DNA from: a virus | Taxonomy: Duplodnaviria > Heunggongvirae > Uroviricota > Caudoviricetes | IMG/VR virus record: IMGVR_UViG_3300021979_000001 | Coordinates: 2,948 to 66,947 of that record | Strand: one strand, 5' to 3' | Length of the DNA: 64,000 nt | In this document: positions 12,027-58,641 of the stretch, one piece after another | How positions within the stretch are numbered: the stretch's first letter is position 1 | Layout of the letters: each line of letters starts with the position of its first letter | Position numbers and translations under genes: made by a program | Notes under the pieces: model-generated | Databases searched by the model: none | What the model saw: only the letters and a program-made list of their open reading frames with translations | What the model was told of the DNA's origin: nothing

Positions 12027-12089
12027 GAAACGGTCTTACCTGTAAAAACGAAACCACTTATGTCGTAATTCAATTGTTGCATTATTAGC

Positions 12090-12907: not shown

Positions 12908-12969
12908 GATAGGACCATCCCTGGTAATAAAAAATCACTAATATTTCAATTGGCAGTATCAATTAATCA

Positions 12970-13185
12970 TTAACTACAGTCATGCCCTGGACTCTCACCA
13001 TAACCATAACCATTCCCAACACCATTGCCATCCCCATCACCATAACCAGAACCGAAACCGTCCCCCTCATTATAACCATTCCCATTACCAGAACCGAAAC
13101 CATCGCCATTAGCAAAAATAGAACCATAAAGATTTCTCTTTAGGTCCGCATTGTATAAATAAAACAAATTAATTGGTGTATTCAT
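12970..13185 (-). CDS. Gly-X repeat small protein (divergent)
   Basis: N-term MNTPINLFYLYNADLKRNLYG. Confidence 0.55.
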   Translation of the reverse strand: MNTPINLFYLYNADLKRNLYGSIFANGDGFGSGNGNGYNEGDGFGSGYGDGDGNGVGNGYGYGESPGHDCS

Positions 13186-13243
13186 GATCTGCTTCCTAGG
13201 TAATAAAATTGCTCATTCATGTTATACTTCAATTAATGCATCA

Positions 13244-13465
13244 TTAGTCAAAAAAACTAACGGAACCATTCCCATAGCCATAACTAGAACCATTGTCCAA
13301 ACCCTCGTTATAATCTTTTCCAGAACTATAACCATTTCCATAATCATAACCAAACCCGGCCCCATAGCCAAAACACCTGTAACTGGTATCTGCACCGGAA
13401 CCGAAACCAGAATCATTTATGGATAGATCAGACTCTTGATGATTTAATTTTACGAATATAGTCAT
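13244..13465 (-). CDS. Gly-X repeat small protein (divergent)
   Basis: N-term MTIFVKLNHQESDLSINDSGFG. Confidence 0.55.
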   Translation of the reverse strand: MTIFVKLNHQESDLSINDSGFGSGADTSYRCFGYGAGFGYDYGNGYSSGKDYNEGLDNGSSYGYGNGSVSFFD

Positions 13466-13517
13466 TATATGCCATATAAGGTAATAAGTTTAATAAATCA
13501 TATTATAATTGGTTGCA

Positions 13518-13745
13518 TCAATCACCATGACCCTTACCATCTCCAAAACCATACCCGAAACTATAACCAAACACCGAACCAATACCCTCGCCAACACCAA
13601 TACGGAAATCATTACCATCCCCATTCCCATAACCAAAACCATAACTTTCCCCAGTATAATAACCCGAACTCGGTTCATTACCCAACCACCCATCGGGTGT
13701 TAGGTCGGTGTTATAACAATAATACATTTTTATTGGCGTATTCAT
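13518..13745 (-). CDS. Gly-X repeat small protein (divergent)
   Basis: likely start MNTPIKMYYCYNTDLTPDGW. Confidence 0.5.
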   Translation of the reverse strand: MNTPIKMYYCYNTDLTPDGWLGNEPSSGYYTGESYGFGYGNGDGNDFRIGVGEGIGSVFGYSFGYGFGDGKGHGD

Positions 13746-13812
13746 AATTATTTTACCGAGTGACAAAAATAAGTTAACTAAATTGCATTACAACTTAGTG
13801 GTATCATTAATA

Positions 13813-14043
13813 TTACGTATCCCCATAATCATAACCAAATCCAGAACCCTTACCATAACCATTTCCCTGCTCGCCACCATACCCCGCACCAACCCCAGAA
13901 CCGTAACTATCTCCATTATTATAACCAGCACTGGCCCCCATCCCATAACTCAAACCATTACCAAAACCCAAACCAGACCCATCCCAGGAGACATCTTTTT
14001 TTAGATAGGGTTCGTGATAACACCAGTCGATAGCGGTATTCAT
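13813..14043 (-). CDS. Gly-X repeat small protein (divergent)
   Basis: likely start MNTAIDWCYHEPYLKKDVSWDG. Confidence 0.5.
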   Translation of the reverse strand: MNTAIDWCYHEPYLKKDVSWDGSGLGFGNGLSYGMGASAGYNNGDSYGSGVGAGYGGEQGNGYGKGSGFGYDYGDT

Positions 14044-14096
14044 AATTATCATCTCGGTAAAAAATGAAAGTTCAAATCACATATATTTCAATTATT

Positions 14097-14290
14097 CGGA
14101 ATTACACCCCAGAGTGCCATACCTAAACCCAAAACCAAAACCATATTCATTCTCACCACCATATCCCTGACCGGAACACGAGCCATAACTATGACCATGA
14201 CTATGACCGGAACTATCGGTATGATCCGGTTCATCACCTGTTTCATTAGTGTGGTCATCGACAAAACAATAACATGTTTATATTCATGTT
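14097..14290 (-). pseudogene. frameshifted array member, coordinates approximate
   Basis: a leader-like ATG AAT ATA AAC ATG.. is out of frame with the downstream Gly-X core (..GHSHGHSYGSCSGQGYGGENEYGFGFGF..); no intact ORF. Confidence 0.35.
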
Positions 14291-14313
14291 ATAATAAGAG
14301 CCATTTGAATAAT

Positions 14314-14550
14314 TTACGATATACGTCCATGACCATGACCATTGCCCGCCCCAAAACCATAATTATAACCATGCTCATTACCGGCGCTATCCCCAGCACC
14401 ATCCCCCATGCCATAACCTGCATGATACTCATTCCCATGACCCAACCCCGGACTATGATCATCCCCATAATCATCCCCGGCACCGGAACCAGAATTATCA
14501 GTTTTTAGATCGGGGTTATCGCAGTAATGAAACATAATCGATGGTTTCAT
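14314..14550 (-). CDS. Gly-X repeat small protein (divergent)
   Basis: likely start MKPSIMFHYCDNPDLKTDNSGSG. Confidence 0.5.
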   Translation of the reverse strand: MKPSIMFHYCDNPDLKTDNSGSGAGDDYGDDHSPGLGHGNEYHAGYGMGDGAGDSAGNEHGYNYGFGAGNGHGHGRIS

Positions 14551-14581
14551 AATTGTTTCACCAAGTAAAAAATAAGTTAAA

Positions 14582-14824
14582 TTATTCACCATCTACGTTG
14601 CCATGACCATTGCCCGTCCCAAAACCATAACTATAACCATACCCATCATCCACACCATACCAGGCACCATCACCATTGCCATAACCCACGTCATATTGAT
14701 TCCCATAACCTTTCCCCGGACTATAATCATCCCCAGGATCATACCCGGCACATGAACCAGAGCCAGAACCATCGGTTATTGGATCGGGTTCATAGCAATA
14801 ATTAAATGCAATCGGTAGATTCAT
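14582..14824 (-). CDS. Gly-X repeat small protein (divergent)
   Basis: N-term MNLPIAFNYCYEPDPITDGSGSG. Confidence 0.55.
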   Translation of the reverse strand: MNLPIAFNYCYEPDPITDGSGSGSCAGYDPGDDYSPGKGYGNQYDVGYGNGDGAWYGVDDGYGYSYGFGTGNGHGNVDGE

Positions 14825-14877
14825 AATTGGTTCACCAATGAGAAAAAATAAGTTAAATCATTCACATTATATTTCAA

Positions 14878-15183
14878 TTATTCATAATTACGCCCAGTGC
14901 CATGCCCATCCCCATACCCAAAACCATCACCATCACTAGACACATAACCATCACCATCAACATAACCAATACCATTGCCAGCCCCATCACCATCACCATC
15001 AACATAACCAATACCATTGCCAGCCCCATCACCCATGCCATAACCTTCGTCATAATCATTCCCATAACCCTGCCCCGGATTATGATAATCCCCAGAATCA
15101 TAACCGGCACCGGAAACGGAACCATCACCATCACTTACTAGATCGGGGTTATTGCAATAATTAAATGTAATTGATGGTTTCAT
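14878..15183 (-). CDS. Gly-X repeat small protein (divergent) with internal 15-aa duplication
   Basis: N-term MKPSITFNYCNNPDLVSDGDG; GDGAGNGIGYVDGDG occurs twice. Confidence 0.55.
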   Translation of the reverse strand: MKPSITFNYCNNPDLVSDGDGSVSGAGYDSGDYHNPGQGYGNDYDEGYGMGDGAGNGIGYVDGDGDGAGNGIGYVDGDGYVSSDGDGFGYGDGHGTGRNYE

Positions 15184-15243
15184 AATTATTTCACTAAATG
15201 GTTAAACCACGTCAAATCGCACAGTTAGATTACAGGTATTGCA

Positions 15244-15444
15244 TCATTCACCCCTATTCCCATCACCACGACCATAACCCTCACCAGAAACAAAACCTTT
15301 ACCTGAACCATTCCCAAATCCATACACATTACCATAAGATATACCAAAACCATCCTCGGTGCCATGATCAGAGCCATGACCAAAACCATAAACATTGTTG
15401 GGTATATCATGGTTTTGGAAATATGATTCAATCGATATATTCAT
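15244..15444 (-). CDS. Gly-X repeat small protein (C-like)
   Basis: likely start MNISIESYFQNHDIPNNVYGFG. Confidence 0.5.
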   Translation of the reverse strand: MNISIESYFQNHDIPNNVYGFGHGSDHGTEDGFGISYGNVYGFGNGSGKGFVSGEGYGRGDGNRGE

Positions 15445-15512
15445 AATTAAATCATTCATTTATTACATCATCAACTGTTACCAGGTCCATTGTCATACCC
15501 GCTTATCGGCAT

Positions 15513-15770
15513 CTATTCAGGTTCACCACTTGATCCATCCCAGTTTCCACGACTCGAACCATTACCAAATCCAAAAGCCGAACAATAACCATTTTTGTGA
15601 ATAAAAATATGTTCATACGTTTTGCCATCACCATAACCATAACCATAACCAGAACCATATCCATAACCATTACCAAATCCAAAAACCGAACCATTATCTG
15701 AAACAATTTCCGAAACAATTTCATTTGGGCTGCTATCATCGCAATATAATAAATTTATCAGTTCATACAT
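15513..15770 (-). CDS. Gly-X repeat small protein (divergent)
   Basis: N-term MYELINLLYCDDSSPNEIVSEIVSDNGSVFGFG. Confidence 0.5.
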   Translation of the reverse strand: MYELINLLYCDDSSPNEIVSEIVSDNGSVFGFGNGYGYGSGYGYGYGDGKTYEHIFIHKNGYCSAFGFGNGSSRGNWDGSSGEPE

Positions 15771-15779
15771 AATTAATAC

Positions 15780-15890
15780 TGACCATCCATCGAACCCTCA
15801 CCAAACCCATGACCATATCCATAAATGTCACCAACATCATCACATTCGCCGCCCCATTTGTATGACAGTAGTTCGTTAGGACGTCATAAT
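15780..15890 (-). pseudogene. array member remnant without start codon, coordinates approximate
   Basis: Gly-X frame ..YKWGGECDDVGDIYGYGHGFGEGSMDGQY-stop with no in-frame ATG. Confidence 0.3.
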
Positions 15891-15989
15891 TAAAATAATA
15901 AAACCCGATTAATATATTAATGATACGGACACCCCAAGTGATAAAAAATGATTTAAATCACTACAACTATAATTCAACTGTTAAGTTCG

Positions 15990-16238
15990 TTAATCCGATC
16001 CATGACCGAAACCAGCACCATATCCAGTCCCAAAACCATCCCCATCACTAGAGCCATGACCATGACCATGACCATCTTTATAGTCTTGACCAGACCCGAC
16101 ACCATTGCCATCCCCATCACCTAGACCATAACCTTTGCCATCCCCTTTACCATAGCCTTCACCATCGCCATCATCATAACTGATTTCCTTTTGATCGGCG
16201 GTATTTATGTAAAAAGATAGGATTACGTATGTGTTCAT
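15990..16238 (-). CDS. Gly-X repeat small protein (divergent)
   Basis: N-term MNTYVILSFYINTADQKEISYDDGDG. Confidence 0.55.
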   Translation of the reverse strand: MNTYVILSFYINTADQKEISYDDGDGEGYGKGDGKGYGLGDGDGNGVGSGQDYKDGHGHGHGSSDGDGFGTGYGAGFGHGSD

Positions 16239-16290
16239 AATATGTCACTCCAAACACAACAATAATAATTCAAAATACACATATTATATT

Positions 16291-16530
16291 TCAATAAGCA
16301 CCGTCACCATAACCATGCCCCCAATGCCCAGTCATATTTGTATCCCCAATATCAAACCCATTCCCATTCCCATTCCCTTTTCCAAAACCAAAACCATAAC
16401 CATCACTATCCCCATTATGATGGACATAACTAAGACTATAACCTTTCCAATTGTCATACCCATCATACCCATCACTATCATCATATTCACAGATATGGAC
16501 ATAATAATACAATATTATGTTAATGTGCAT
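16291..16530 (-). CDS. Gly-X repeat small protein (divergent)
   Basis: likely start MHINIILYYYVHICEYDDSDGYDGYD. Confidence 0.45.
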   Translation of the reverse strand: MHINIILYYYVHICEYDDSDGYDGYDNWKGYSLSYVHHNGDSDGYGFGFGKGNGNGNGFDIGDTNMTGHWGHGYGDGAY

Positions 16531-16578
16531 TACGAGTTCCCACATGTAAATAACATAATCAAACAGTTAATATAATAT

Positions 16579-16839
16579 CTATTTCATGGTCATATAAAAA
16601 TGATCTGTTTCATTACCATCATTGGCACCAGCCCCATGTCCAACACCGTTACTATCACCTAAATCATCACCCGAAGCAGAATCATCCCCCATACCAGAAT
16701 TATTTGTATGTCCAGAACCACTTCCTCTACCATATCCAAACACATGTCCTTTTTTATGTCCATGCGCAAACCCACGACCATAGTGATACCAATTACTATA
16801 TACATCGACACAATAAATTACTTTTATGGGCAATTTCAT
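16579..16839 (-). CDS. Gly-X repeat small protein (divergent)
   Basis: likely start MKLPIKVIYCVDVYSNWYHYGRG. Confidence 0.5.
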   Translation of the reverse strand: MKLPIKVIYCVDVYSNWYHYGRGFAHGHKKGHVFGYGRGSGSGHTNNSGMGDDSASGDDLGDSNGVGHGAGANDGNETDHFYMTMK

Positions 16840-16901
16840 TATTAACATCCAATCAATTAAATAGATAAACCGTAATAATTATAATTATTTCTTACACTAA
16901 T

Positions 16902-17180
16902 TCACCATGATTTTCTGACCCATTTATGCGAGCCGTAACCAATATTATAACTTGACCCATATCCATTTCCCTGTCCATCAGCATAACCATAACCATGCCC
17001 TGCCCCTGAAAGATAACTAACCCCTAACGTTGGGCTTGTATCCCCAACATATGCAGAGCCATCCCCCTGCCCGTCACCTTTAACAGAACCATCCTCATAC
17101 TCCGAACCAGTTCTAGTCCCGGAAAAGTTGTTATAAAGATCGGCATTTCGGTAAAAACACGATTTTATGGTGGGTTTCAT
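16902..17180 (-). CDS. Gly-X repeat small protein (divergent)
   Basis: likely start MKPTIKSCFYRNADLYNNFSG. Confidence 0.5.
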   Translation of the reverse strand: MKPTIKSCFYRNADLYNNFSGTRTGSEYEDGSVKGDGQGDGSAYVGDTSPTLGVSYLSGAGHGYGYADGQGNGYGSSYNIGYGSHKWVRKSW

Positions 17181-17238
17181 ACTTATCACACTTGCAAAAA
17201 GTTGGATTAGTCATAAAATAAACACAATGGTGGCTGCA

Positions 17239-17484
17239 TTACCCGAAACTATCACCGAAATAAAAACCGTAAGCGTGACCACATCCAAGACCCTCACAAT
17301 TACCAGATTTAGCATTTAATCCATAATCCTGACCATGACCGTAAACGGCCCAATATCGAATTACGTAACTTATTTCATAATGAGAACCACTTCCCTGCCC
17401 CTCGCCATAACCACCCCCATTACGAATTAAAGAACCATTACCCGAACGTTTTATGTAATATAAATCTATTGGTATATTTGCCAT
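17239..17484 (-). CDS. Gly-X repeat small protein (divergent)
   Basis: N-term MANIPIDLYYIKRSGNGSLIRNGGGYG. Confidence 0.45.
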   Translation of the reverse strand: MANIPIDLYYIKRSGNGSLIRNGGGYGEGQGSGSHYEISYVIRYWAVYGHGQDYGLNAKSGNCEGLGCGHAYGFYFGDSFG

Positions 17485-17533
17485 TTGACTTCGCCAAGTA
17501 AAAATGGATATATGGAGATAATCATTTCATTGT

Positions 17534-17728
17534 TCACTCTGCCATAGCACCATGCCCATAGCCATAACCACCATCAAACACGTTCCCATACCCATTACTA
17601 TCCCCATCCTCATACCCATCGCTAGAGTCAGACCCGTATCCATACCCGGTTCCATCACTATTGCCATATCGATAGCTATTATTATGTTGATCAACTGTGT
17701 AATATAGTAGTGTTATAGGTAGTTTCAT
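17534..17728 (-). CDS. Gly-X repeat small protein (divergent)
   Basis: N-term MKLPITLLYYTVDQHNNSYRYG. Confidence 0.55.
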   Translation of the reverse strand: MKLPITLLYYTVDQHNNSYRYGNSDGTGYGYGSDSSDGYEDGDSNGYGNVFDGGYGYGHGAMAE

Positions 17729-17826
17729 TGTTTTATTACCAAGTTGGGTTCAACCGAAATAATACTGGTAAGTATATCAATCATACTCATATATCATTTA
17801 ATAATATAAGGGATAATGTAGTTTGG

Positions 17827-18213
17827 TTAGTCCTGTCCTAACGCATCTGACGAAAACGGATGTGAATTATCCATATGCTGACTGCATAACCATTCAATTC
17901 CAGTAATGGAGTAAACACCATTAACTGCGGGCGCGCCGCAATAATGACATTTTTTGTGTGCCATTTCGGACGTTCCGTCGTGTTTAGCACGTTTTTTACT
18001 GAACTTGGACTTTGTAAAATGCCCCGCTTTCATCTGGGTAACGGATTTACCCATTGCTCGGTAATTTGCCCCATTAATTCCTGTTGTTTTGGTTTGGTGT
18101 TTTGCTTTACACCCTTTACAACAATACTGCGCCCATCCTCGATTGCGATCTGCAATTCTTGCTTCAAAATCAGTTTTACACCATAAGCAAGAAAATGTTC
18201 CAGTGGCCGCCAT
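17827..18213 (-). CDS. Cys-rich putative zinc-ribbon protein
   Basis: several CxxC pairs (CLWC, CCKGCK, CHYCG); locally GC-richer; interrupts the array before its last member. Confidence 0.4.
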   Translation of the reverse strand: MAATGTFSCLWCKTDFEARIADRNRGWAQYCCKGCKAKHQTKTTGINGANYRAMGKSVTQMKAGHFTKSKFSKKRAKHDGTSEMAHKKCHYCGAPAVNGVYSITGIEWLCSQHMDNSHPFSSDALGQD

Positions 18214-18348
18214 AGGTCAAATCTCCATAATGGGGGGTAAAAATCATAAACAATTGTAGTATTTTTGGTTATATAAAGCAAAGATTAAAATTATTGTTTT
18301 TTGATGATTGGAATGGCATATAACACGGTGTCATCAATAACTTATTTC

Positions 18349-18594
18349 TCAATCAACCAAGTTTGCAATACCAAAACCATAACCGTTACTATCGCCTTCG
18401 GTATTACCTGGACCATCCCCATAACCTTCCCCATTACTTACACTATTACTAAATCCAAAACCATGCCCTGAACCATTACCAAAACTACGACCACAACCAC
18501 CCCCGTATTCTGATATAGCAATATCACCTACGGAATCATCATCACCTGGATAAAAATCGACGATATGATATGATAGTATGACAGTTTTCATCAT
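18349..18594 (-). CDS. Gly-X repeat small protein (outlying, divergent member)
   Basis: N-term MMKTVILSYHIVDFYPGDDDSVGD followed by a GxG-rich core. Confidence 0.5.
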   Translation of the reverse strand: MMKTVILSYHIVDFYPGDDDSVGDIAISEYGGGCGRSFGNGSGHGFGFSNSVSNGEGYGDGPGNTEGDSNGYGFGIANLVD

Positions 18595-19268: not shown

Positions 19269-19664
19269 TTACGAGGATTGTGCGTGTGGTGTCATGTCCA
19301 GCAAGCTGGCAATTGCCACATCGGTGCAAATGGTCAAAGAGTATTCTTCGACGATCACCTTATACGGTGCCGGATGTGAGATTTTGCTGTCATTTGATGT
19401 GCCATATAGTGCCACGCCTTCATACCACGAGGCTTCTTGCACACTTGGCTTGAAATACCACAGCCGTTGTGCATTCTTTATCACAACACCGGTATGATCG
19501 GCGGAGACAACCAGACCGAAATTCAATCCTTCATTTCGGGTGCGAACAAGGCAGTATTTGCCAATTGCAAAATCGGTGACTGGACTGCCGGTAGTTACGT
19601 TGTTCTGCTTGATATAATCAGGAACATCGGTGTTTGGTCCGGCGGCGGCAACTGCTGTTGACAT
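19269..19664 (-). CDS. hypothetical protein (131 aa)
   Basis: intact ORF. Confidence 0.35.
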   Translation of the reverse strand: MSTAVAAAGPNTDVPDYIKQNNVTTGSPVTDFAIGKYCLVRTRNEGLNFGLVVSADHTGVVIKNAQRLWYFKPSVQEASWYEGVALYGTSNDSKISHPAPYKVIVEEYSLTICTDVAIASLLDMTPHAQSS

Positions 19665-26123: not shown

Positions 26124-26297
26124 TTAACTTTCGGCTTTATTCCAATGACCATTATAATACCGAAATCGATAGTCAAAATCCATATATTTAAAAAAACTCA
26201 CAAAATGCTATTTTTATGTTGACGAAATTTTTTTAGCGTTTAATATACACGTTATCGACAGGGGAAACGGTTTCCCTTAAAAAAAATTCTTTGATGA

Positions 26298-26870
26298 ATG
26301 GAAAAACAAATGTCTAATGCAAATCTTTTTGGTTCTAAACCCAGTGATCGCGTTGCTGTGTTTTTCGACGGGGCGAACCTGTTTGCCAGCACTCGGGCCT
26401 TGGACGTTCACTTGGATTATTCCAAGCTGACCGAAGCCCTGGGCACGGGATGCAACATGATGCGGATGTATTACTACACCGCCCTGCCGGATGGTGATGC
26501 TCAATGCGCGGTTCGTCCGCTTGTGGATTGGCTCGACTATAACGGCTATACCATGGTCACGAAGCCAACCAAGGAATTCACCGACTCCGCAACTGGTTTG
26601 CGGAAAATCAAAGGTAACATGGACATCGAAATTGCAATTGATGTGATGGAAATGGCACCGCACCTTGACCATGTGATCCTGTTTTCCGGTGATGGCGATT
26701 TCCGGCGTCTGGTTGAGGCGGTTCAACGCAAAGGGGTGCGCGTTACTGTTGTATCGACCGTCAAATCGAACCCATCGATGATTGCGGATGAACTTCGTCG
26801 CCAGGCCGACAAATTCGTCGAACTTGCGGACATCATGTCGTATGTCGTGCGGGATGTGCGGGAGAAATAA
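26298..26870 (+). CDS. NYN/LabA-like domain protein (putative RNA nuclease)
   Basis: VAVFFDGANL ... IDVMEMAPHLDHVILFSGDGDFRRLVEAVQRKGVRVTVV is typical of the LabA/NYN fold; clearly GC-richer than the flanks. Confidence 0.65.
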   Translation: MEKQMSNANLFGSKPSDRVAVFFDGANLFASTRALDVHLDYSKLTEALGTGCNMMRMYYYTALPDGDAQCAVRPLVDWLDYNGYTMVTKPTKEFTDSATGLRKIKGNMDIEIAIDVMEMAPHLDHVILFSGDGDFRRLVEAVQRKGVRVTVVSTVKSNPSMIADELRRQADKFVELADIMSYVVRDVREK

Positions 26871-26906
26871 TTCCATCATACCAGCACGGTTAGTTATTAA
26901 TCAAAA

Positions 26907-43933: not shown

Positions 43934-45673
43934 ATGGTAATTAAGGATATATCTATGCAAGTTAAGAAACGAAATGGTTCAATGGAGCCAGTAAATCTCG
44001 ATAAAATTGTTAAATCCATTGAAGCGGTAGCAACGGGCCTGGACGGGGTTGATGTTTTCCGAATCGCGCAGAAAACCGTTGGTGGACTAGTTCATGGTGT
44101 TACCACACGTGAACTCGATATGTTTTCAATTCGAAACGCGGCTGGGTTGATTATCGAAGACCCCGTATATTCCAAAGTCGCGGCCAGAATCATGCATAAC
44201 GTCATTTCCAAAGAAGTATCAGGACAAGATATTCAATCTTTTTCACAATCAATCAGTCTTGGTTACGAAATGGGGTTGATTGATGAACAAACATATAATC
44301 TGGTTATGAATAATAAACGCAAGTTAAATGCGTCTATTAAAACCGAACGTAGTGATTTATTTGAATTTCACGGAATCATCACTGTTTATGATAGATACCT
44401 GTTGAAGCATCGTGATTTGATGGCTGGCTCTGGGACGGATCGTCGTCGGGCAGTAATTGAAACCCCGCAATATTTCTTCATGCGTGTCGCTTGTGGTTTG
44501 GCGAATGATGCGAAAGAAGCAGTTGAACTGTATAATCTGGTATCATCGCTTGAATATATGACATCAACACCGACATTGTTTAATTCCGGGACATCACATA
44601 CGCAAATGTCGTCCTGCTATCTGCTTGATAGCCCGAACGATGATTTGCAGGATATTTATAAACGATATTCGGATATTGCCTCCCTATCAAAATTTGCGGG
44701 TGGCATTGGTGTGTCTGCTAGTCGCATTCGGTCTAAAGGTTCCCCCATTAAGGGCACAAACGGTCGTTCAAACGGTATCATTCCATGGTTACACACCCTG
44801 TCTGGATCAGTTGGGGCAGTCAACCAGGGCGGCAAGCGCAAAGGTGCTGCATGTGTTTATCTTGAACCACACCATGCTGATGTAATGCAGTTTTTGGAAT
44901 TGCGTGACCAGACGGGTGAAAAAGAACGTCGTGCCTATAACCTTAACATTGCAAATTGGGTATCTGATTTGTTTATGTCACGCGTCAAGAATGATGAAAT
45001 TTGGTCATTGTTTGATCCGGCTGATGTTCCAGAACTGGTTGATCTTTATGGTGATGAATATACCAAACGGTATCTTGAACTTGAAGAACAGGGAAAATTT
45101 GTTGAACAGATTAGCGCACGAAAAATTTATGCGCGAATGATGCGCACCCTGGCAGAAACCGGTAATGGTTGGATGTGCTTTAAAGATACATCCAATAATC
45201 GCGGGAATCAGGTGGGCGAGGGACGCTCGATCAAGCTGTCAAACCTTTGTTTTGCCCCAGATACCATCATTCATGCAAAACTGGGTGATAAGGTAATGGA
45301 CATTGAAATCAAGGCATTAAGTGATTATTTCAGCGTTGGTATTCCGGTTCAGGTTTGGTCGTTCAACGAAGAAACACACGAAATGGAATGGAAAAATGTG
45401 GTGAATGCCGGATTGACCAATCCTGATGCGGAATTGATGGAAATCGAAACACCATCCGGTAAAATAATTCGTTGCACGGAAGATCACCCCATGCTGACTG
45501 AACGCGGGTGGGTTAATGCTGGCGATCTAACCGAAGACGACTCTCTTGTTGAAGTTGATACCACGCAAGAAGTGCATAAATTCGAACATTGGAATAAAGA
45601 TAAACACATGGTAACCGAAATTATCATGGATCATCTTTATTCCAAAAATAAAAAAACCAGCGTCATTATGTAA
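43934..45673 (+). CDS. nrdA: class I ribonucleotide reductase alpha subunit, N-terminal fragment, ending in a split-intein N half (IntN)
   Basis: ATP-cone/NrdA-like sequence up to ..IKLSNL, then CFAPDTIIHAKLGD...GKIIRCTEDHPMLTERGWVNAGDL (Hint N-blocks, DnaE IntN-like), then a stop. Confidence 0.75.
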   Translation: MVIKDISMQVKKRNGSMEPVNLDKIVKSIEAVATGLDGVDVFRIAQKTVGGLVHGVTTRELDMFSIRNAAGLIIEDPVYSKVAARIMHNVISKEVSGQDIQSFSQSISLGYEMGLIDEQTYNLVMNNKRKLNASIKTERSDLFEFHGIITVYDRYLLKHRDLMAGSGTDRRRAVIETPQYFFMRVACGLANDAKEAVELYNLVSSLEYMTSTPTLFNSGTSHTQMSSCYLLDSPNDDLQDIYKRYSDIASLSKFAGGIGVSASRIRSKGSPIKGTNGRSNGIIPWLHTLSGSVGAVNQGGKRKGAACVYLEPHHADVMQFLELRDQTGEKERRAYNLNIANWVSDLFMSRVKNDEIWSLFDPADVPELVDLYGDEYTKRYLELEEQGKFVEQISARKIYARMMRTLAETGNGWMCFKDTSNNRGNQVGEGRSIKLSNLCFAPDTIIHAKLGDKVMDIEIKALSDYFSVGIPVQVWSFNEETHEMEWKNVVNAGLTNPDAELMEIETPSGKIIRCTEDHPMLTERGWVNAGDLTEDDSLVEVDTTQEVHKFEHWNKDKHMVTEIIMDHLYSKNKKTSVIM

Positions 45674-45817
45674 GTATTGTGGTAAAAATCCGGTAGGTCG
45701 TAATAAAACATCATATCGAAAATGTTGCGACCTGCCGGAATTTAAATGAAATATACAACTATGAAGTTAAATGTGCAAATGATGTTTCATTTGAACATAT
45801 ATGAAAGGCTAAAATAA

Positions 45818-47092
45818 ATGGCATTAAAAATTCGTCGCACCGGAGAAAGAAGTCCGGTATATGATTTGCATGTTGCAGATAATCACACGTTCGTAGCGGA
45901 TGGTCATATTGTCCATAATTGCACCGAAATTTTAGAAGTCACATCATCTGGTGACAAGTTAAAAATGAGTCGTGAACAGATTGCGGCCTTAACCAAAGAT
46001 GACATGATTAAGGACAATATCCGTGTTGTTGGCTTTGACCATAAGACTGATCAATTTGAAGTCATTAAGGGAATGGAAACTGCGGTTTGTAATCTTGGCT
46101 CGATTAACCTGTCTCGTGGTTATGTCAAGGCTGGCAAACTCGACAAAGTAAAGTTGCGAAAGAATGTTGCAATTGCGGTTAAATATCTTGATCGCGTTAT
46201 TGATCGTAATTTTTATCCAATCCCGGAAGCAGAATCATCGAATGATCGGTGGCGTCCAATTGGACTTGGATTGATGGGTCTGGCGGATTTCTTCTTTCAG
46301 ATTGGATTACCATTTGGCAGTGATGAAGCAATTAAATTGTCTGGTGAGATTCAGGAAGAAATTTATTATCAGGCATTGGTGACATCTAACGAATTGGCAA
46401 AAGAACATGGCCCACATCGTGATTTCGATTTAACACGGGCGGCCAAAGGAGAATTACAATTCGATTTGGCGGGCGTAGAAGTGGCCGACAAAGAGCGTTG
46501 GGATGATCTTAAGGCATCCATCATGGAACACGGCTTACGCAACTCCTTGGTCATTGCAATCGCTCCCACGGCCACTATTAGTCATATCGTTGGGGCCGAA
46601 GAATGCATTGAACCAATCAAGTTTAATTTGATGAAACGCGAAACCTTGTCCGGTGAATTTATTTCGATCAATAAGTATTTGGTTCGTGATCTGAAAAAAC
46701 TTGGGCTATGGGATGAACGCATGCGATCATTGCTAACACGAGAAAATGGTTCGGTCCAAAACTTGCCGGTTCCTGATGAAATCAAAGAACTCTATAAAAC
46801 AGTTTGGGAAATATCACAGAAAGACATCATCGCCCATGCTGTTGCTCGTGGTGCCTTTATTGATCAAAGCCAGTCTCTCAATCTGTTCCTGGACTTGACC
46901 AAACATGCACCGGATAAGCGCATCGGTGTTGTATCAAAACTTTATATGCATGCATGGGAAATGGGTTGCAAAACAACTTATTATTTGCGCACACGATCAG
47001 GAAGTCAGATTGAAAAGGTGACGATTAACAGTCAGTCATCTGCCCCTGCGGCGGCACCGGAAAATCCAGATATTTGTGAAAGCTGCACCTAA
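45818..47092 (+). CDS. nrdA: split-intein C half (IntC, 35 aa) fused to the RNR alpha C-terminal fragment
   Basis: MALKIRRTGERSPVYDLHVADNHTFVADGHIVHN followed by CTEI..; own RBS GAAAGG 9 nt upstream of the ATG; NrdA C-terminal region with the C-terminal Cys pair. Confidence 0.75.
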   Translation: MALKIRRTGERSPVYDLHVADNHTFVADGHIVHNCTEILEVTSSGDKLKMSREQIAALTKDDMIKDNIRVVGFDHKTDQFEVIKGMETAVCNLGSINLSRGYVKAGKLDKVKLRKNVAIAVKYLDRVIDRNFYPIPEAESSNDRWRPIGLGLMGLADFFFQIGLPFGSDEAIKLSGEIQEEIYYQALVTSNELAKEHGPHRDFDLTRAAKGELQFDLAGVEVADKERWDDLKASIMEHGLRNSLVIAIAPTATISHIVGAEECIEPIKFNLMKRETLSGEFISINKYLVRDLKKLGLWDERMRSLLTRENGSVQNLPVPDEIKELYKTVWEISQKDIIAHAVARGAFIDQSQSLNLFLDLTKHAPDKRIGVVSKLYMHAWEMGCKTTYYLRTRSGSQIEKVTINSQSSAPAAAPENPDICESCT

Positions 47093-52128: not shown

Positions 52129-52590
52129 ATGATAAACGATAAAAATAATAAAACATTCGGTATCTATTCCAAAGTAGTTTATACCGATGCAGATAATCAA
52201 CGCATTGCTGATTATATTAAAAAGCACAATTTTCCCAATCCGGTTGCGACCAATGATATACATACAACATTGGTTTACTCTCGCAAACCGTTTCAGTGGA
52301 AACCAAATCTTGGCAATAGTGATAACACACCAATTGCCACCGCTTCAACATACCAGCTTGAAGTTTTTGAATCGGATACTGGAAATTATTTAGTTGCTCT
52401 TGTTCATAGTGAATACTTGGTAAAACGCTGGGTAGAAGCTATTGATAATGGGGCAACTTGGGACTATCCCGAATATCGCCCACATATTACGCTTGCAACG
52501 GATATTGGCGATTTTGATATTTCGGATATTCCTGATCCGGTGTTTGATCTGCAAATCGTAAAAGAAGTTGTAGAACAACTAAAAGACTAA
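52129..52590 (+). CDS. 2H phosphoesterase family protein (Acb1/LigT-like cyclic-nucleotide phosphodiesterase)
   Basis: two H-x-T-x motifs (DIHTTLVYS and RPHITLATD) in a 153-aa protein. Confidence 0.5.
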   Translation: MINDKNNKTFGIYSKVVYTDADNQRIADYIKKHNFPNPVATNDIHTTLVYSRKPFQWKPNLGNSDNTPIATASTYQLEVFESDTGNYLVALVHSEYLVKRWVEAIDNGATWDYPEYRPHITLATDIGDFDISDIPDPVFDLQIVKEVVEQLKD

Positions 52591-55677: not shown

Positions 55678-55731
55678 AGAGACCCCCTCTTTACACAAAC
55701 TTGCCCCGGTTTTAAACAACCGGGGTTTTTT
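55672..55731. terminator. two tandem hairpins (10-bp and 8-bp perfect stems), the second with a T tract; bidirectional terminator region
   Basis: gtgtaaagag-acccc-ctctttacac and ccccggtt-ttaaac-aaccgggg-tttttt. Confidence 0.6.
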
Positions 55732-55915
55732 ATGTCTTATATAATCGCGTTTGATAGTGGTCCTGCTCTGCCATACGAAGCATCACATCTTGAATGTCGT
55801 CCTCGTTATTATATGTGATTTCTACCCCATCATCATATATCGCATCAATATGAGTGATAATATCGTGTATGTTCGTATGTTGATTGATGTTTGTAATAAC
55901 CCCGTCTCTAATCAT
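55730..55915 (-). CDS. hypothetical small protein (61 aa)
   Basis: intact ORF ending at the terminator. Confidence 0.3.
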   Translation of the reverse strand: MIRDGVITNINQHTNIHDIITHIDAIYDDGVEITYNNEDDIQDVMLRMAEQDHYQTRLYKT

Positions 55916-56089
55916 TGAAAATCCTTGTGTTTATGCATTTGGGTCGTGGTTCTTATAGGGTATTTAGACAATGAAAATCCGATTTTATATAAAAAATGTG
56001 CATTTTTATTAAAAAAGTGATTGACGTTATCCAAATAACTGCTAATCTTCATTTTATCGGAACAAAGGAACGTAGAAAGGACTAAAGAA

Positions 56090-56875
56090 GTGAACCGTCC
56101 AACCAAGACATTTATGGCTTTTATGATGGTGGCAACACTGTCCGCGTGTGCCGATGTCAATAAAGTTGATCGGGGAGATTTTGGTTCTTTTGAACGTTCG
56201 CTGAACCATAAAAGTTATGGTTATCAATTGATTGATGATCCGACTGGTTCAGCACCAACTGCACAAGTAGAGCGGTTTGAAGTTCGCGATGGTGATTGTG
56301 CGAATGATTTCACGTGGAGTGATTGCGCAACCCATCGCGAACGGTCCGAGGTTAAACAACCGCCGAAAATGCGGCGGTTATCCGAAGGAACACACCAGTG
56401 GTATAGCTGGTATATATACGTCCCGAAAGGGACACCTTCGATCAATCCGGGAAATAACTGCATGGCGCAGTTTCACAACTCGGGTTCAAATGAAACAGCG
56501 TTTATGTTTCAACATGGTTTAGGTGGGTATTACTTCGACAACCATTTATTCCGCGATGCCAACTATGTTGTTTTGGTCCCAAAAGGTCAATTCGATGGAA
56601 AATGGCATCATATTGAAGTCGAAGTTTTTTGGTCGCGAAACGGCCAGAAAGGTTTTGTTAATGTGTGGGCCAATGGCGACCAAAAAGTCGCGTGGAAGGG
56701 GGTAACCCTTCGGGCTGGGGATGCATACTTTAAGTATGGTATTTATCGGTCGCACCTTGATCGCTTTGACAAGGTGTATCCCGGTAAAAAACATCCAACA
56801 CAAATTGCCATGTATGCCGGGGTGCGTGCCGGTGAAACGCGGGCTGATGTTCAAATACCCGCTTCCAACTTCTGA
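56090..56875 (+). CDS. secreted lipoprotein with PL7-like (alginate lyase-type) motifs
   Basis: lipobox LSAC; RSEVKQ, AQFHNSG (QxH) and YFKYGIY match the PL7 R(S/T)EL, QIH and YFKAGVY signatures; GC-rich. Confidence 0.5.
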   Translation: MNRPTKTFMAFMMVATLSACADVNKVDRGDFGSFERSLNHKSYGYQLIDDPTGSAPTAQVERFEVRDGDCANDFTWSDCATHRERSEVKQPPKMRRLSEGTHQWYSWYIYVPKGTPSINPGNNCMAQFHNSGSNETAFMFQHGLGGYYFDNHLFRDANYVVLVPKGQFDGKWHHIEVEVFWSRNGQKGFVNVWANGDQKVAWKGVTLRAGDAYFKYGIYRSHLDRFDKVYPGKKHPTQIAMYAGVRAGETRADVQIPASNF

Positions 56876-56887: not shown

Positions 56888-57343
56888 ATGAACGAAGATT
56901 CCAACAACATTATTACCGTAACAAACAACATCGTGACCGCCTACCTTGCGAACAACAGCATCGACTACGCTGACCTGCCTGACTTTATCATCAACGTGTC
57001 AAACGCGGTCCGGGGCGTTGAAGAAAGCGCGTCGGTCTCTGGCAACATTACCATCAACGACACCCCGGCCCCGGCCCCAACTGAAAAGCCGAAACCTGCG
57101 GTTTCAATCAAGAAATCCATTGGCGACGATTTCATCATCTGTCTGGAAGACGGGAAGAAATTGAAAATGCTGAAACGCCACCTTCGGACCACCTACAACA
57201 TGACCCCGGACGAATACCGGGCCAAATGGGGCCTGCCCGCAGATTACCCGATGGTTTGCCCGAACTACGCCCAACAGCGCTCCGAACTGGCCCGCCAAAA
57301 TGGCCTTGGTCGCAAAGCTGGCTCCAAAAAGGCGGACGCCTAA
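56888..57343 (+). CDS. Ros/MucR family transcriptional regulator with degenerate zinc-binding site
   Basis: [57 protein letters not shown] versus the Ros/MucR core [45 protein letters not shown]; GC-rich. Confidence 0.7.
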   Translation: [151 protein letters not shown]

Positions 57344-58641
57344 CGCCGGATAACAATCGGCTTATTGGATGCCTTCTTCTTTTTTTCACCTCGATCTGAT
57401 GGGGCGTAAATCCCATAATCCCCATCAGGATCGAACCCAGACCCAAAGGAGCCGGTTAATGGCTTCGAAACACTCGCAATATTCGCCGCAGCGGTCGCCC
57501 CCGCTGTGGCGTTTTCTTTTATAGACCCAGAACCATCATTGATTAAACCAAATAATTTTTTTATGGCATTCGCATTTTCACTGCTACTATATGCAATAAC
57601 ATTAGAAATTGACAGTTTGGTTTTTGCCATTAAAATACGCAATTCACGCATTTGTTTGTCAGATGGTTTATCAATAATATTCCATTCAACTTTCATCGCC
57701 ACATCCTGGATGAAATACCTCAATTCTCGATCAGATTTTCCCAAATATTCCAAATCACGTTTAATAATAGTCCCATACGTATTCCATGATGGTAAAATAG
57801 TTGACGTGATACCATTTTTATATGCATTAAACATGCGGTTTATTTTAGTTATATATTCATTACGGTTTAGTGTAGGGTCCGACGACAATATAACTAAGTT
57901 TGCAAATTTGTTAATATATGATAATATTTCTTTTCCGCGTCTTTCATATTCAGCATTCCCCAATGCTCGAAATTCAACAACGCCATTTTCTCGCATGTTA
58001 ATTGATGTTAATGTCGGAATTGTGTTAATAACGTCTTCACCAAATTTTCTCATATCTTTAATTACAGCATTAACCCCACGTTCACCTGAAAATACGTCAT
58101 CTTTTGGTGAAAATTCTAATGATCTGTTCAGCCTTGGTAAAAGTTGGTCCACATACTGGTTTCCAACCCGGTCAAATTGTTTAAGGGTATATGTTTCATC
58201 ATAAAACAAAGCCATTTTCAGCAAGTCATAATCTGATTTTGATTTTCCCCTGATCGCAATATTAACGTGTAATCCAGTGGTATAATTGGTTATCCACTTG
58301 GCCGATTGAATAAGATCAAACACTTTTTGCATCGTCGAAAGACCATCATTAAACGAAAAGGGTGGAGAAACAATTTCGACGCCATGTTCATCATTCCCCA
58401 TAACCGATATATCTGGTTCAATCATCCAAACATTAGTTGGTTTATTTTTAACCTTATTATTATTAATAACGATTTTATCAGATGTGATTGTTTTTAGTTT
58501 TTTTGCAACATCATTAAATGCATCCGCCATCGTTAGACCATTTACCAAAATCTCAAACTCAAAACCAATAGTCAATAAATCCGATGATATGTAATCCGCC
58601 TTGTTTATTTTAAGTTCGGTGATAATATCATGATACCGCAT
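57340..58641 (-). CDS. hypothetical protein (433 aa), possibly amidoligase-like
   Basis: N-terminal TIGFEFEI motif reminiscent of the GxExE of putative amidoligases; weak. Confidence 0.3.
   Translation of the reverse strand: MRYHDIITELKINKADYISSDLLTIGFEFEILVNGLTMADAFNDVAKKLKTITSDKIVINNNKVKNKPTNVWMIEPDISVMGNDEHGVEIVSPPFSFNDGLSTMQKVFDLIQSAKWITNYTTGLHVNIAIRGKSKSDYDLLKMALFYDETYTLKQFDRVGNQYVDQLLPRLNRSLEFSPKDDVFSGERGVNAVIKDMRKFGEDVINTIPTLTSINMRENGVVEFRALGNAEYERRGKEILSYINKFANLVILSSDPTLNRNEYITKINRMFNAYKNGITSTILPSWNTYGTIIKRDLEYLGKSDRELRYFIQDVAMKVEWNIIDKPSDKQMRELRILMAKTKLSISNVIAYSSSENANAIKKLFGLINDGSGSIKENATAGATAAANIASVSKPLTGSFGSGFDPDGDYGIYAPSDRGEKKKKASNKPIVIRR

What the first reader, a model, noticed from the sequence alone, without database searches (positions are those of the whole stretch)
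56888..57343. Phage-borne Ros/MucR homolog with degenerate zinc site in a GC-rich island: possible anti-silencing factor and alphaproteobacterial host indicator
The C-terminal 60 aa align almost residue by residue with the Ros/MucR DNA-binding domain. However, the second Cys is Asp (CLED) and the second His is absent (HLRTTYN). Zinc-lacking MucR homologs (Ml proteins of Mesorhizobium) are known to still fold and bind DNA. MucR is the H-NS-like xenogeneic silencer of AT-rich DNA in alphaproteobacteria. An AT-rich phage carrying a variant MucR could compete with or poison host silencing of its own genome. The gene and the upstream lyase are much GC-richer than the phage, which indicates recent capture from a host.
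Basis: partly seen in the sequence, partly recalled or inferred. Interest (0 to 1): 0.65.

Follow-up and report, generated by a model that had tools for sequence, protein, structure and literature searches.

The report
Jumbo-phage copy of bacterial silencer MucR
An AT-rich giant phage carries a recently captured, full-length copy of MucR, the protein alphaproteobacteria use to silence AT-rich foreign DNA, but its "degenerate" zinc site is the normal state in its bacterial relatives, so this is a solid, fairly ordinary case of a phage borrowing a host chromatin protein.

Summary
ORF 56888-57343 (+) encodes a full-length 151-aa Ros/MucR protein (Pfam E 2.5e-46; 60% identical to Ros87 over 80 aa). 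Its site reads Cys85, Asp88, His98, Thr102-Tyr103.

It sits in the most GC-rich 624 bp of the phage part of the window: GC 0.538 against 0.384, GC3 0.69 against 0.36.

The interpretation needs correcting:
- **Zinc site.** Cys-Asp-His-x-Tyr is the majority state of the 116 nearest homologs, including the chromosomal MucR of Thalassospira. A published Cys-Asp-His-Lys-Tyr MucR binds zinc. The known zinc-free Ml5 lacks the first Cys, which is kept here.
- **Lyase.** The upstream lyase is not an island at synonymous sites (GC3 0.435).
- **Donor.** The nearest relatives are only 50-61% identical, all alphaproteobacterial apart from a few MAG contigs under other names, and the tree is unresolved.
- **Precedent.** Phage-borne MucR genes are already annotated and reviewed. 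IMG/VR holds at least 128 matching stretches, three on 517-578 kb contigs.

An alphaproteobacterial host is supported. The backbone genes are closest to Agrobacterium phage Atu_ph07 and Sinorhizobium phage Phosso.

The protein keeps the oligomerisation triad and the DNA-binding domain, so it is probably a working MucR paralog. Whether it silences or counter-silences is untested. This is a new member of a known kind, of modest interest.

The parts
55703..55736 (+). Terminator-like hairpin plus T-run after the yqeY-like gene. It marks the upstream end of the lyase-MucR transcription unit.
   Evidence: 9-pair stem with 6 GC pairs, followed by TTTTTATGTC.
55916..56089 (+). Very AT-rich intergenic region (GC 0.24-0.33), the presumed promoter region of the lyase-MucR unit. 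It holds a weak sigma-70-like candidate: TTGACG (56021-56026), a 16-nt spacer, then TAATCT (56043-56048).
   Evidence: Sequence read and 100-bp GC values. The candidate falls below the threshold of the scan, so it is an inference only.
56090..56875 (+). Polysaccharide lyase (PF14099), 261 aa, with a lipoprotein-type signal peptide (MNRPTKTFMAFMMVATLSAC). It lies 12 nt upstream of mucR and is probably co-transcribed with it.
   Evidence: E 1e-21; for the translation; for the nearest named homologs (Thalassospira lyases, 44-48% identical); (GC3 0.435, only z 0.9).
56888..57343 (+). Full-length Ros/MucR-family gene, 151 aa. It has an N-terminal two-helix oligomerisation domain (aa 3-49, triad Leu30/Phe33/Ile34), a disordered linker (aa 50-70) with a 13-aa insertion, and a C-terminal Ros-type DNA-binding domain (aa 71-141) with Cys85/Asp88/His98/Thr102-Tyr103.
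   Evidence: RBS AGGA lies upstream of the ATG.
57484..57521 (+). Strong intrinsic-terminator-like hairpin (11 pairs, 9 GC) plus TTTTCTTTTA, about 140 nt after the mucR stop. The GC-rich tract ends exactly here.
   Evidence: GC steps from 0.51-0.56 to 0.30-0.35 at about 57510.
57340..57513 (-). The last 58 codons of the convergent amidoligase-like ORF (57340-58641) lie inside the GC-rich tract, antisense to the mucR 3' region and terminator. This is probably an ORF extension into the captured DNA.
   Evidence: the tail has GC1/2/3 of 0.53/0.55/0.50 (flat), against 0.40/0.32/0.28 for the body. The hairpin translates as ATAGATAAA. This is an inference; no homolog is available to show the ancestral C-terminus.

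Best explanation
**What it is (shown).** The gene encodes a canonical full-length MucR-family (H-NS-like) nucleoid-associated protein. It has the two-helix N-terminal oligomerisation domain with its hydrophobic triad, a flexible linker, and a highly conserved Ros-type DNA-binding domain. Its metal site (Cys-Asp-His-x-Tyr) is the ordinary state of its closest cellular relatives.

**Where it sits (shown).** It is a roughly 0.6-kb compositional island: the gene plus its own 3' region and terminator. The codon usage is that of a moderately GC-rich alphaproteobacterium. The island lies inside an AT-rich (39% GC), roughly 457-kb jumbo phage whose backbone is related to Agrobacterium phage Atu_ph07 and Sinorhizobium phage Phosso. 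It is placed directly behind a lipoprotein polysaccharide lyase.

**How it most likely works (inferred).**
- The gene was captured fairly recently from an alphaproteobacterial chromosome or mobile element.
- The protein probably still binds zinc, oligomerises and binds AT-rich DNA with T-A steps.
- During infection it would therefore load onto the same DNA as the host's MucR: the phage's own AT-rich genome and the host MucR regulon (surface polysaccharide, motility and similar).
- That would change how much of this DNA is silenced.

**Direction of the effect (not resolved).** I rate the roles roughly as follows:
- Extra silencer, 'stealth' or timing function, or host take-over: about 0.35.
- Competitor or counter-silencer: about 0.25-0.3.
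- Regulator specific to exopolysaccharide genes, linked to the lyase: about 0.15.
For: **Family and architecture**
- establish family membership.
- AlphaFold2 predicts helices 3-22 and 27-49, a disordered stretch 50-70, and a DNA-binding domain 74-137.
- 27 invariant columns are all kept.
- The triad Leu36/Leu39/Ile40 of Brucella MucR (PMC6250670) corresponds to Leu30/Phe33/Ile34 here.

**The site is family-typical**
-.
- PMC12948726, PMC11662661 and PMC13297338 (a zinc-binding Cys-Asp-His-Lys-Tyr MucR2).

**Island and codon usage**
- GC3 is 0.69-0.71 in both halves of the gene, and AAC outnumbers AAT 13 to 1.
- the terminator sits at the 3' boundary.

**Alphaproteobacterial source or host**
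- the relatives are Thalassospira, Paramagnetospirillum, Azospirillum and Sphingomonadales.
- the lyase's closest named homologs are from Thalassospira.
- the helicase (52% identical), the amidoligase-like protein and a virion protein all hit Atu_ph07 or Phosso best among cultured phages.
- Atu_ph07 is 490 kb with 37.1% GC (PMC6102473).

**It is a phage**
- replicative helicase, primase, virion protein and anti-CBASS Acb1.

**The gene is useful to phages**
- at least 128 MucR-encoding stretches in IMG/VR, with contigs of 517 kb (two copies), 543 kb and 578 kb.
- In AT-rich contigs the gene ranges from fully ameliorated (GC3 0.32 against 0.34) to a sharp island (0.83 against 0.48). This indicates both repeated capture and long retention.
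Against: - No experiment of any kind exists for this protein. Zinc binding, oligomerisation, DNA binding and expression timing are all inferred.
- No close relative of the phage was found, so the insertion could not be shown against an empty site.
- The nearest MucR is only about 60% identical and the tree is unresolved (bootstrap 2.5-14%). 'Recent' rests on composition alone.
- The N-terminal domain is the most divergent of the 116 sequences in the alignment (mean identity 0.33 against 0.485). It also carries Phe at the Leu39 position (2/116) and a longer linker, so normal ring assembly is not assured.
- No sigma-70-type promoter passed the scan upstream of the lyase.
Confidence: 0.6

Rival explanations
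1. Counter-silencer or competitor. The phage MucR would occupy MucR sites on the phage genome but fail to form bridging rings, or would form mixed defective oligomers with host MucR. Either way the AT-rich phage genome would be relieved of xenogeneic silencing. The analogies are Ler against H-NS, and S. meliloti MucR2/3, which bind MucR1 sites without bridging.
For: - The DNA-binding domain is conserved while the N-terminal domain is the most divergent of 116 homologs.
- Phe replaces the Leu39-equivalent residue (2/116).
- The linker carries a unique 13-aa insertion.
- There is precedent for mobile-element-borne MucR paralogs that bind DNA but do not bridge (PMC13297338).
- A 39%-GC genome in a likely 55-65%-GC host is an obvious MucR target (PMC9410896, PMC8857273).
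Against:
- The protein is full length, and the invariant Ile of the triad is retained (Ile34; 115/116).
- The single Thr substitution that accompanies loss of ring formation in MucR2/3 is not present here.
- Divergence of the N-terminal domain may simply reflect an unsampled donor.
- There are no functional data.
Confidence: 0.27
2. Surface-polysaccharide module. MucR here would act as a conventional regulator, paired with the exported lyase, to shut down or redirect host exopolysaccharide synthesis while the lyase degrades it. The benefit could be progeny release or superinfection control.
For: - A 12-nt spacing with an RBS, and no terminator between lyase and mucR.
- The lyase has a lipoprotein signal peptide, so it acts on the cell envelope rather than in the virion.
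- MucR, Ros and Ml proteins regulate exo genes and bind the exoY promoter (PMC5693944, PMC9779718).
Against: - The two genes differ strongly in GC3 (0.435 against 0.69), so they were probably acquired separately.
- No lyase lies within 5-10 kb of mucR in any of 80 cellular or 27 viral loci.
- In Thalassospira both genes lie among chromosomal housekeeping genes, with no lyase within 10 kb of mucR and no mucR within 10 kb of the lyase.
- The other MucR-bearing phage loci lack the lyase.
Confidence: 0.15
3. Neutral passenger or assembly artefact. The GC-rich segment would be a recently picked-up, functionless fragment or a chimeric join.
For: - A sharp compositional island.
- The neighbouring ORF runs into it.
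- No close phage relatives are available to show conservation.
Against: - The same junctions appear on four contigs shown (five read) from different pipelines and two sequencing runs.
- The ORF is intact, all 27 family-invariant residues are kept, and it has an RBS and a terminator.
- Other AT-rich phages keep MucR long enough for full amelioration.
Confidence: 0.07

Closest known systems
Chromosomal MucR of Rhodospirillales-type alphaproteobacteria (e.g. Thalassospira, Paramagnetospirillum; Pfam PF05443)
   Same: Same length class and two-domain architecture, with an identical metal-site pattern Cys-Asp-His-Thr-Tyr. The C-terminal domain is 79% identical on average, up to 86%, and shows 79% nucleotide identity over 228 nt with a Thalassospira gene.
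   Different: Overall identity is only 55-61%. The N-terminal domain is the most divergent of 116. There is a 13-aa linker insertion, and Ala124 is replaced by Cys. The gene sits in a jumbo phage behind a lyase, not among chromosomal housekeeping genes.
Brucella abortus MucR / Agrobacterium Ros (the experimentally characterised H-NS-like members)
   Same: A Ros-type DNA-binding domain 60% identical to Ros87, the oligomerisation triad, and the first three zinc ligands of Brucella MucR (Cys80, Asp83, His93) (PMC6250670; PMC11662661).
   Different: The fourth ligand, His97 of Brucella MucR (His96/97 of Ros), is Thr102 here. Only the neighbouring Tyr is kept.
Sinorhizobium meliloti MucR2/MucR3 (plasmid-borne paralogs, PMC13297338)
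   Same: They are carried on a mobile element. They have Cys-Asp-His with no fourth His and a conserved Tyr, a site shown to bind zinc. They bind MucR1 target DNA, which makes them a plausible functional model for a modulator.
   Different: They have Lys rather than Thr before the Tyr. They also carry a Thr substitution in the N-terminal hydrophobic core that goes with loss of ring assembly, and that substitution is absent here. They are not phage-borne.
Mesorhizobium loti Ml4/Ml5
   Same: Same family, with a variant metal site; they fold and bind DNA (PMC9779718, PMC5693944).
   Different: Ml5 lacks the first Cys (it has Ser) (PMC11662661), whereas the window protein keeps Cys85. The analogy does not hold at the defining residue.
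Phage- and plasmid-borne homologs of xenogeneic silencers: phage MucRs (Erythrobacter phage vB_EliS_R6L, Mesorhizobium phage Cp1R7A-A1, Citromicrobium phage RXM), plasmid H-NS-like Sfh/Pmr, phage H-NS
   Same: A full-length copy of the host lineage's silencer carried by a mobile element. Phage MucRs are already annotated and were noted in a review as agents of lateral transfer (PMC5463345; PMC7710501).
   Different: Those cultured phages are 65-131 kb. Here the carrier is an AT-rich phage of about 457 kb, and the gene is a sharp GC3 island. No function has been tested for any phage MucR in the papers I found.

Membership tests
Ros/MucR family (PF05443) | Full-length match to the family profile above the curated cutoff | tested here: met
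   157.1 bits against a cutoff of 25.4, E 2.5e-46, profile positions 2-123 of 123.
Ros/MucR family (PF05443) | C-terminal Ros-type DNA-binding domain homologous to the solved Ros87 structure | tested here: met
   E 2.4e-29 to 2jsp_A with 80 ungapped columns; 48/80 identical. The AlphaFold2 model folds residues 74-137 with pLDDT 67-84. The Foldseek search against PDB was uninformative.
Ros/MucR family (PF05443) | N-terminal two-helix oligomerisation domain with the hydrophobic triad (Leu36/Leu39/Ile40 in Brucella MucR) | tested here: met
   Helices 3-22 and 27-49 with pLDDT 77-89. The triad is Leu30/Phe33/Ile34; Phe is rare at the middle position (2/116).
Ros/MucR family (PF05443) | Higher-order oligomers and bridging of AT-rich DNA | not testable with these tools
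   Requires light scattering or cryo-EM, EMSA and bridging assays.
Classical zinc-binding Ros/MucR (Cys2His2 or CysAspHis2) | Four ligands: Cys, Cys/Asp, His, His | tested here: not met
   Cys85, Asp88 and His98 are present. Both positions of the fourth His are Thr102 and Tyr103.
Cys-Asp-His-(Tyr) zinc-binding variant (S. meliloti MucR2/3 type) | Cys, Asp and His retained, no fourth His, and a conserved Tyr at the Ros His97 position | tested here: met
   The pattern is C-D-H-T-Y. Tyr103 is invariant in 116/116 homologs. MucR2 has Lys before the Tyr, whereas Thr is found here (PMC13297338). Zinc binding itself was not tested.
Zinc-free Ml5-type members | First coordinating Cys replaced (Ser in Ml5) | tested here: not met
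   Cys85 is retained (116/116 in homologs). The Ml5 feature is taken from PMC11662661.
Truncated dominant-negative anti-silencers (H-NST-like logic) | Oligomerisation domain only, with the DNA-binding domain missing | tested here: not met
   Both domains are present and conserved.
Horizontally acquired gene (compositional island) | Synonymous-site composition and codon usage deviating from the resident genome, with defined boundaries | tested here: met
   GC3 0.691 against 0.361 ± 0.078. None of 872 windows reaches the island's GC. The 3' boundary is at the terminator 57484-57511. An empty-site comparison was not possible.
Atu_ph07/Phosso-like jumbo phages of alphaproteobacteria | Backbone genes closest to these phages; genome above 400 kb; low GC | tested here: inconclusive
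   The helicase is 52% identical to Phosso and Atu_ph07. The amidoligase-like protein and a virion protein also hit them best. The contig is 457 kb and GC is 0.39. Identities are low and there is no local synteny.

The most novel reading that the evidence does not exclude
AT-rich jumbo phages of alphaproteobacteria may repeatedly capture the host's own xenogeneic silencer. This copy has an intact DNA-binding domain, an unusually divergent oligomerisation domain and a lengthened linker. It may work as a non-bridging competitor that keeps a 457-kb AT-rich genome transcribable in a MucR-armed host. That would be the first phage-encoded anti-MucR (counter-silencing) factor. The evidence here does not exclude this reading, but it does not favour it over a plain extra silencer.
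Probability: 0.2. Interest if true: 0.65.

Novelty: new member of a known kind. Interest (0 to 1): 0.33.

Why it matters
MucR was only recently recognised as the H-NS-like silencer of AT-rich foreign DNA in alphaproteobacteria. How phages cope with it is unstudied in the papers I found.

A 39%-GC, roughly 457-kb phage in a probably 55-65%-GC host is an extreme target for such silencing. A phage-borne MucR is therefore a natural handle on that question.

The practical value here has three parts:
1. It gives a reliable host clue for an uncultured giant phage.
2. It provides a clean example, with defined boundaries, of a single-gene capture.
3. It shows that MucR genes recur in AT-rich and very large viral contigs, in every stage from fresh island to fully ameliorated. 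That argues the gene is useful to phages.

The zinc-site "degeneracy" that made the finding look special is not special.

Tried and rejected
1. **Empty-site test for the insertion.** The amidoligase-like and lyase proteins have no relatives in IMG/VR. The protein database holds only seven distant amidoligase homologs. Atu_ph07 shows no synteny around its amidoligase homolog. The test was not possible.
2. **Donor phylogeny.** I built a neighbour-joining tree of 107 MucR sequences with 200 bootstraps. The window protein falls next to a Rhodospirillales-type clade, but with 2.5-14% support, so the placement is unresolved.
3. **Lyase-MucR cassette in a donor.** No lyase homolog lies within 5-10 kb of mucR in 80 cellular or 27 viral loci. 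The closest lyase (52% identical) sits in a mobile region without mucR. In the Thalassospira loci examined, neither gene lies within 10 kb of the other.
4. **Fold search.** Foldseek of the AlphaFold2 model against PDB gave no hit at E ≤ 0.001, not even 2jsp. This is probably because of the flexible two-domain model. I treated the result as uninformative.
5. **NCBIfam.** It has no model that matches any of the three proteins.
6. **Sample origin.** No paper mentions the run, sample or JGI identifiers.
7. **Cys124 as a replacement fourth zinc ligand.** Two other homologs in the 116-sequence alignment also have this Cys, as does one AT-rich phage MucR (L110), and no model coordinates were available to measure distances. 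I did not pursue it.
8. **Assembly chimera.** Rejected, because identical junctions occur on independently assembled contigs.
Full report

Yes. ORF 56888-57343 (+) encodes 151 aa. It matches Pfam ROS_MUCR end to end: profile positions 2-123 of 123, 157 bits against a cutoff of 25.4, E 2.5e-46.

Residues 65-144 align without gaps to the solved Ros87 domain (2jsp_A, E 2.4e-29), with 48 of 80 residues identical. In that alignment the Ros ligands Cys79, Cys82 and His92, plus the alternative fourth ligands His96/His97, correspond to Cys85, Asp88, His98 and Thr102/Tyr103.

The identical protein (P0001) is recorded on a 457,165-bp contig. The same gene order was recovered on four contigs shown (five read) from JGI, ENA and two Logan assemblies. 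This is not an assembly chimera.

**2. The compositional island**

The window outside the first 17.6 kb has GC 0.387.

- *The tract.* 56888-57511 has GC 0.538. None of 872 other 624-bp windows reaches it (mean 0.384, sd 0.033, max 0.503).
- *The gene.* Among 60 called genes, mucR has the highest GC3: 0.691 against 0.361 ± 0.078, z 4.2. GC3 is equally high in both halves of the gene (0.71 and 0.68). Codon choice is that of a GC-richer organism: AAC 13 to AAT 1, no ATA, TTA or AGA.
- *The 3' boundary.* It is sharp and coincides with a strong terminator-like hairpin on the + strand at 57484-57511, followed by TTTTCTTTTA. The captured piece seems to be the gene plus its own 3' region and terminator.
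- *The neighbouring ORF.* That 3' region lies inside the convergent amidoligase-like ORF (57340-58641, −). Its last 58 codons have a flat GC1/2/3 of 0.53/0.55/0.50, against 0.40/0.32/0.28 for the body. The hairpin itself reads ATAGATAAA. I infer that this ORF now runs on into foreign DNA.
The lyase and mucR therefore probably arrived separately.

**3. What carries it**

The window looks like a phage:

- A DnaB-like helicase, a primase, ribonucleotide reductase and a virion structural protein.
- An anti-CBASS Acb1 gene.

Among cultured phages the backbone genes point the same way:

- The helicase is closest to Sinorhizobium phage Phosso (469 kb) and Agrobacterium phage Atu_ph07 (490 kb), at 52% identity.
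- The virion protein hits these same two phages best. The amidoligase-like protein is matched only by Ralstonia phage RsoM2USA (best) and Atu_ph07.
- Atu_ph07 has 37.1% GC (PMC6102473), and its Agrobacterium host is much GC-richer (about 59% from my own knowledge). An AT-rich giant phage on a GC-rich alphaproteobacterium therefore has precedent.
- Neither Atu_ph07 nor Phosso has a MucR hit, so the gene is not a lineage trait.

**4. Who are its relatives?**

All 8000 scored database hits are PF05443 proteins.

- The best cellular hits are 50-61% identical. They are Thalassospira, Paramagnetospirillum/Magnetospirillum, Azospirillum and Sphingomonadales, that is alphaproteobacteria, plus a few MAG contigs carrying non-alphaproteobacterial names.
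- A neighbour-joining tree places the phage protein beside a Rhodospirillales-type clade, but with 2.5-14% bootstrap support. The donor clade is unresolved.
- The Thr102 state is shared with Thalassospira, Paramagnetospirillum, Thalassobaculum and some Azospirillum. It is not seen in the Sphingomonadales sampled, which mostly have His.
- The lyase's best named homologs are also from Thalassospira, at 44-48%.
- In Thalassospira the MucR gene lies among chromosomal housekeeping genes (rpiB, glyA, nrdR, rib operon), and no lyase lies within 10 kb of it.
- No lyase lies near mucR in any of 107 fetched loci.

The host indication stands. The donor cannot be named.

**5. The 'degenerate zinc site'**

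This is the main correction.

*Frequencies among relatives:*

| Position | State | Frequency |
|---|---|---|
| 85 | Cys | 116/116 nearest homologs |
| 88 | Asp | 116/116 nearest homologs |
| 98 | His | 115/116 |
| 102 | Thr | 83/116 (His in only 11) |
| 103 | Tyr | 116/116 |

All 111 scored MucR hits in the fetched loci (four are the window's own gene; 107 are relatives) also have Cys…Asp.

*What the literature says:*

- Most Ros homologs carry Asp at ligand 2, and the fourth His is not always conserved (PMC12948726).
- Brucella MucR binds zinc through Cys80, Asp83, His93 and His97, next to Tyr98 (PMC11662661).
- The zinc-free Ml5 has Ser in place of the first Cys (PMC11662661). The window protein keeps that Cys.
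- S. meliloti MucR2 has Cys-Asp-His, no fourth His, and Lys-Tyr at the last two positions. NMR of its single His shows that it binds zinc, and Tyr is proposed as the fourth ligand (PMC13297338).

The phage protein's site is therefore the wild-type state of its nearest cellular relatives. It is more likely zinc-binding than zinc-free. I put zinc-free at about 0.25. It gives no reason to expect a 'poison' variant.

**6. What is unusual about the protein**

- The DNA-binding domain is close to the family consensus. Mean identity to the 115 homologs is 0.79, rank 26 of 116.
- The N-terminal domain is the most divergent of all 116: 0.33 against 0.485 among the others.
- The linker has a unique 13-aa insertion.
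- Leu, Leu and Ile of the oligomerisation triad (Leu36/Leu39/Ile40 in Brucella, PMC6250670) are Leu30, Phe33 and Ile34 here. Phe occurs in only 2 of 116 sequences, counting the window protein itself.
- The nearly invariant Ala124 is Cys here. Two other homologs in that alignment share this, as does one AT-rich phage MucR (L110).
- AlphaFold2 predicts the expected architecture: two N-terminal helices (3-22 and 27-49, pLDDT 77-89), a disordered stretch 50-70, and a folded domain 74-137.

These features are compatible with normal assembly or with altered partner specificity. Sequence alone cannot decide.

**7. Context and likely mechanism**

- mucR starts 12 nt after the lyase stop, behind an AGGA.
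- The pair is bracketed by terminator-like hairpins at 55703-55726 and 57484-57511.
- The pair is preceded by a 24-33% GC intergenic region.
- The lyase (PF14099) begins with MNRPTKTFMAFMMVATLSAC, a lipoprotein-type signal. It is therefore an envelope enzyme made in the infected cell, not a virion depolymerase.

My best reading is as follows. This is a working MucR paralog, made during infection, that binds the same AT-rich, T-A-step DNA as the host silencer: the phage genome and the host MucR regulon. It changes how much of that DNA is silenced.

Whether it adds silencing, competes with host MucR, or specifically controls polysaccharide genes together with the lyase cannot be decided here. 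An extra-silencer role would resemble the plasmid-borne H-NS-like proteins. A competitor role would resemble Ler, or MucR2/3, which bind but do not bridge. Rough weights are 0.35, 0.27 and 0.15, with the rest for 'other or none'.

**8. How new is it?**

Not very.

- GenBank phages of Mesorhizobium, Erythrobacter and Citromicrobium already carry annotated MucR genes (PMC5463345).
- A 2020 review lists phage MucRs and proposes phage-mediated transfer (PMC7710501).
- A profile-guided scan of IMG/VR found at least 128 MucR-encoding stretches. These include contigs of 517 kb (two copies), 543 kb and 578 kb.
- Of ten MucR-bearing contigs with flanks below 50% GC, nine have a GC-richer mucR.
- By GC3 these genes range from fully ameliorated (0.32 against 0.34) to sharp islands (0.78 against 0.41; 0.83 against 0.48).

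That spread implies both repeated capture and long retention by AT-rich phages. This is the most interesting by-product of the work. I did not see it described in the papers I searched.

**9. Verdict**

Host indication and recent capture of mucR hold. The degenerate or zinc-less site and the co-captured lyase do not. The anti-silencing idea is untested.
- This is a new member of a known kind.
- Interest is about 0.33.

Noticed in passing
window 48-18594, minus strand: There is a head-to-tail array of at least 47 small ORFs of 66-107 aa. The pooled composition of the five units counted is about 35% Gly, followed by Tyr, Asp, Ser, His and Asn, arranged as (G-[YHDSNF])n cores. Each ORF has one of several conserved ~20-aa N-terminal leaders, for example MVTIYNLYYSIPLITNDETYG, MNTSIETYFQEPDQPDNIYG, MKPYINQSFYINIY.PETYHG or MNLPINQYFCIHADDHETGSG. 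Units spaced about 240-310 bp share an AT-rich upstream motif. The region has no ORF of 150 aa or more and an extreme GC skew of -0.4 to -0.5. The three ORFs tested have no Pfam match. An 18-kb paralogous family of Gly-rich mini-proteins in a phage is very unusual and deserves its own study.
   Followed up: partly
window 57340-57513, minus strand: The C-terminal 58 codons of the amidoligase-like ORF are encoded antisense to the mucR 3' region and terminator. Their codon-position GC is flat. They are probably an accidental ORF extension into captured DNA, and the two genes overlap by 4 nt at their stops.
   Followed up: partly
L088 / L126 (IMGVR_UViG_3300024239_000011, 543 kb), locus L088 9881-10378: A second, unrelated huge viral contig (GC about 0.47) carries its own single-gene MucR island: GC 0.66 over 400 bp, GC3 0.83 against 0.48. 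It has the same CLED…HLRTTYN site. Its N-terminal motif is KIAEVT, with Thr at the Ile40-equivalent position. That is the kind of change reported to accompany loss of ring assembly in S. meliloti MucR2/3.
   Followed up: partly
L145 and L195 (IMGVR_UViG_3300034072_000758, 517 kb); L188 (IMGVR_UViG_3300046660_000488, 578 kb): Two more viral contigs above 500 kb encode MucR homologs. One carries two copies more than 200 kb apart, with different degrees of GC3 excess (0.78 against 0.41, and 0.63 against 0.54).
   Followed up: partly
P0002-P0005 (metagenomic proteins of 230-250 aa): The four best non-self hits are MucR proteins with a second, C-terminal, shortened Ros-like domain (…CLEDGKVVKDLGRHARK…YGLPANYPMT). 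This tandem-DNA-binding-domain architecture was not mentioned in the MucR papers I read.
   Followed up: no
window 52129-52590 (+): An anti-CBASS Acb1 gene (PF23474, E 3.2e-35) lies between a radical-SAM gene and the small subunit of ribonucleotide reductase. It is a counter-defence gene in the same neighbourhood.
   Followed up: partly
window 43934-47092 (+): The large subunit of ribonucleotide reductase appears split over two ORFs (579 and 424 aa). There is a faint intein-splicing signal and a match to an intein-like segment of helicases or head proteins, so an intein or a split gene is likely.
   Followed up: no
window 26277-26879 (-) and 19269-19664 (-): These genes have the next-highest GC3 in the window: 0.567 (z 2.6; no Pfam match) and 0.49 (DUF6948). 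They are possibly further foreign genes.
   Followed up: partly
L110 / L172 (IMGVR_UViG_2929058669_000001, 41 kb, GC 0.37): The MucR of another AT-rich phage contig shares the rare Ala-to-Cys change in the PMV[A/C]P motif with the window protein. Its gene is nearly ameliorated (GC3 0.40 against 0.34).
   Followed up: no
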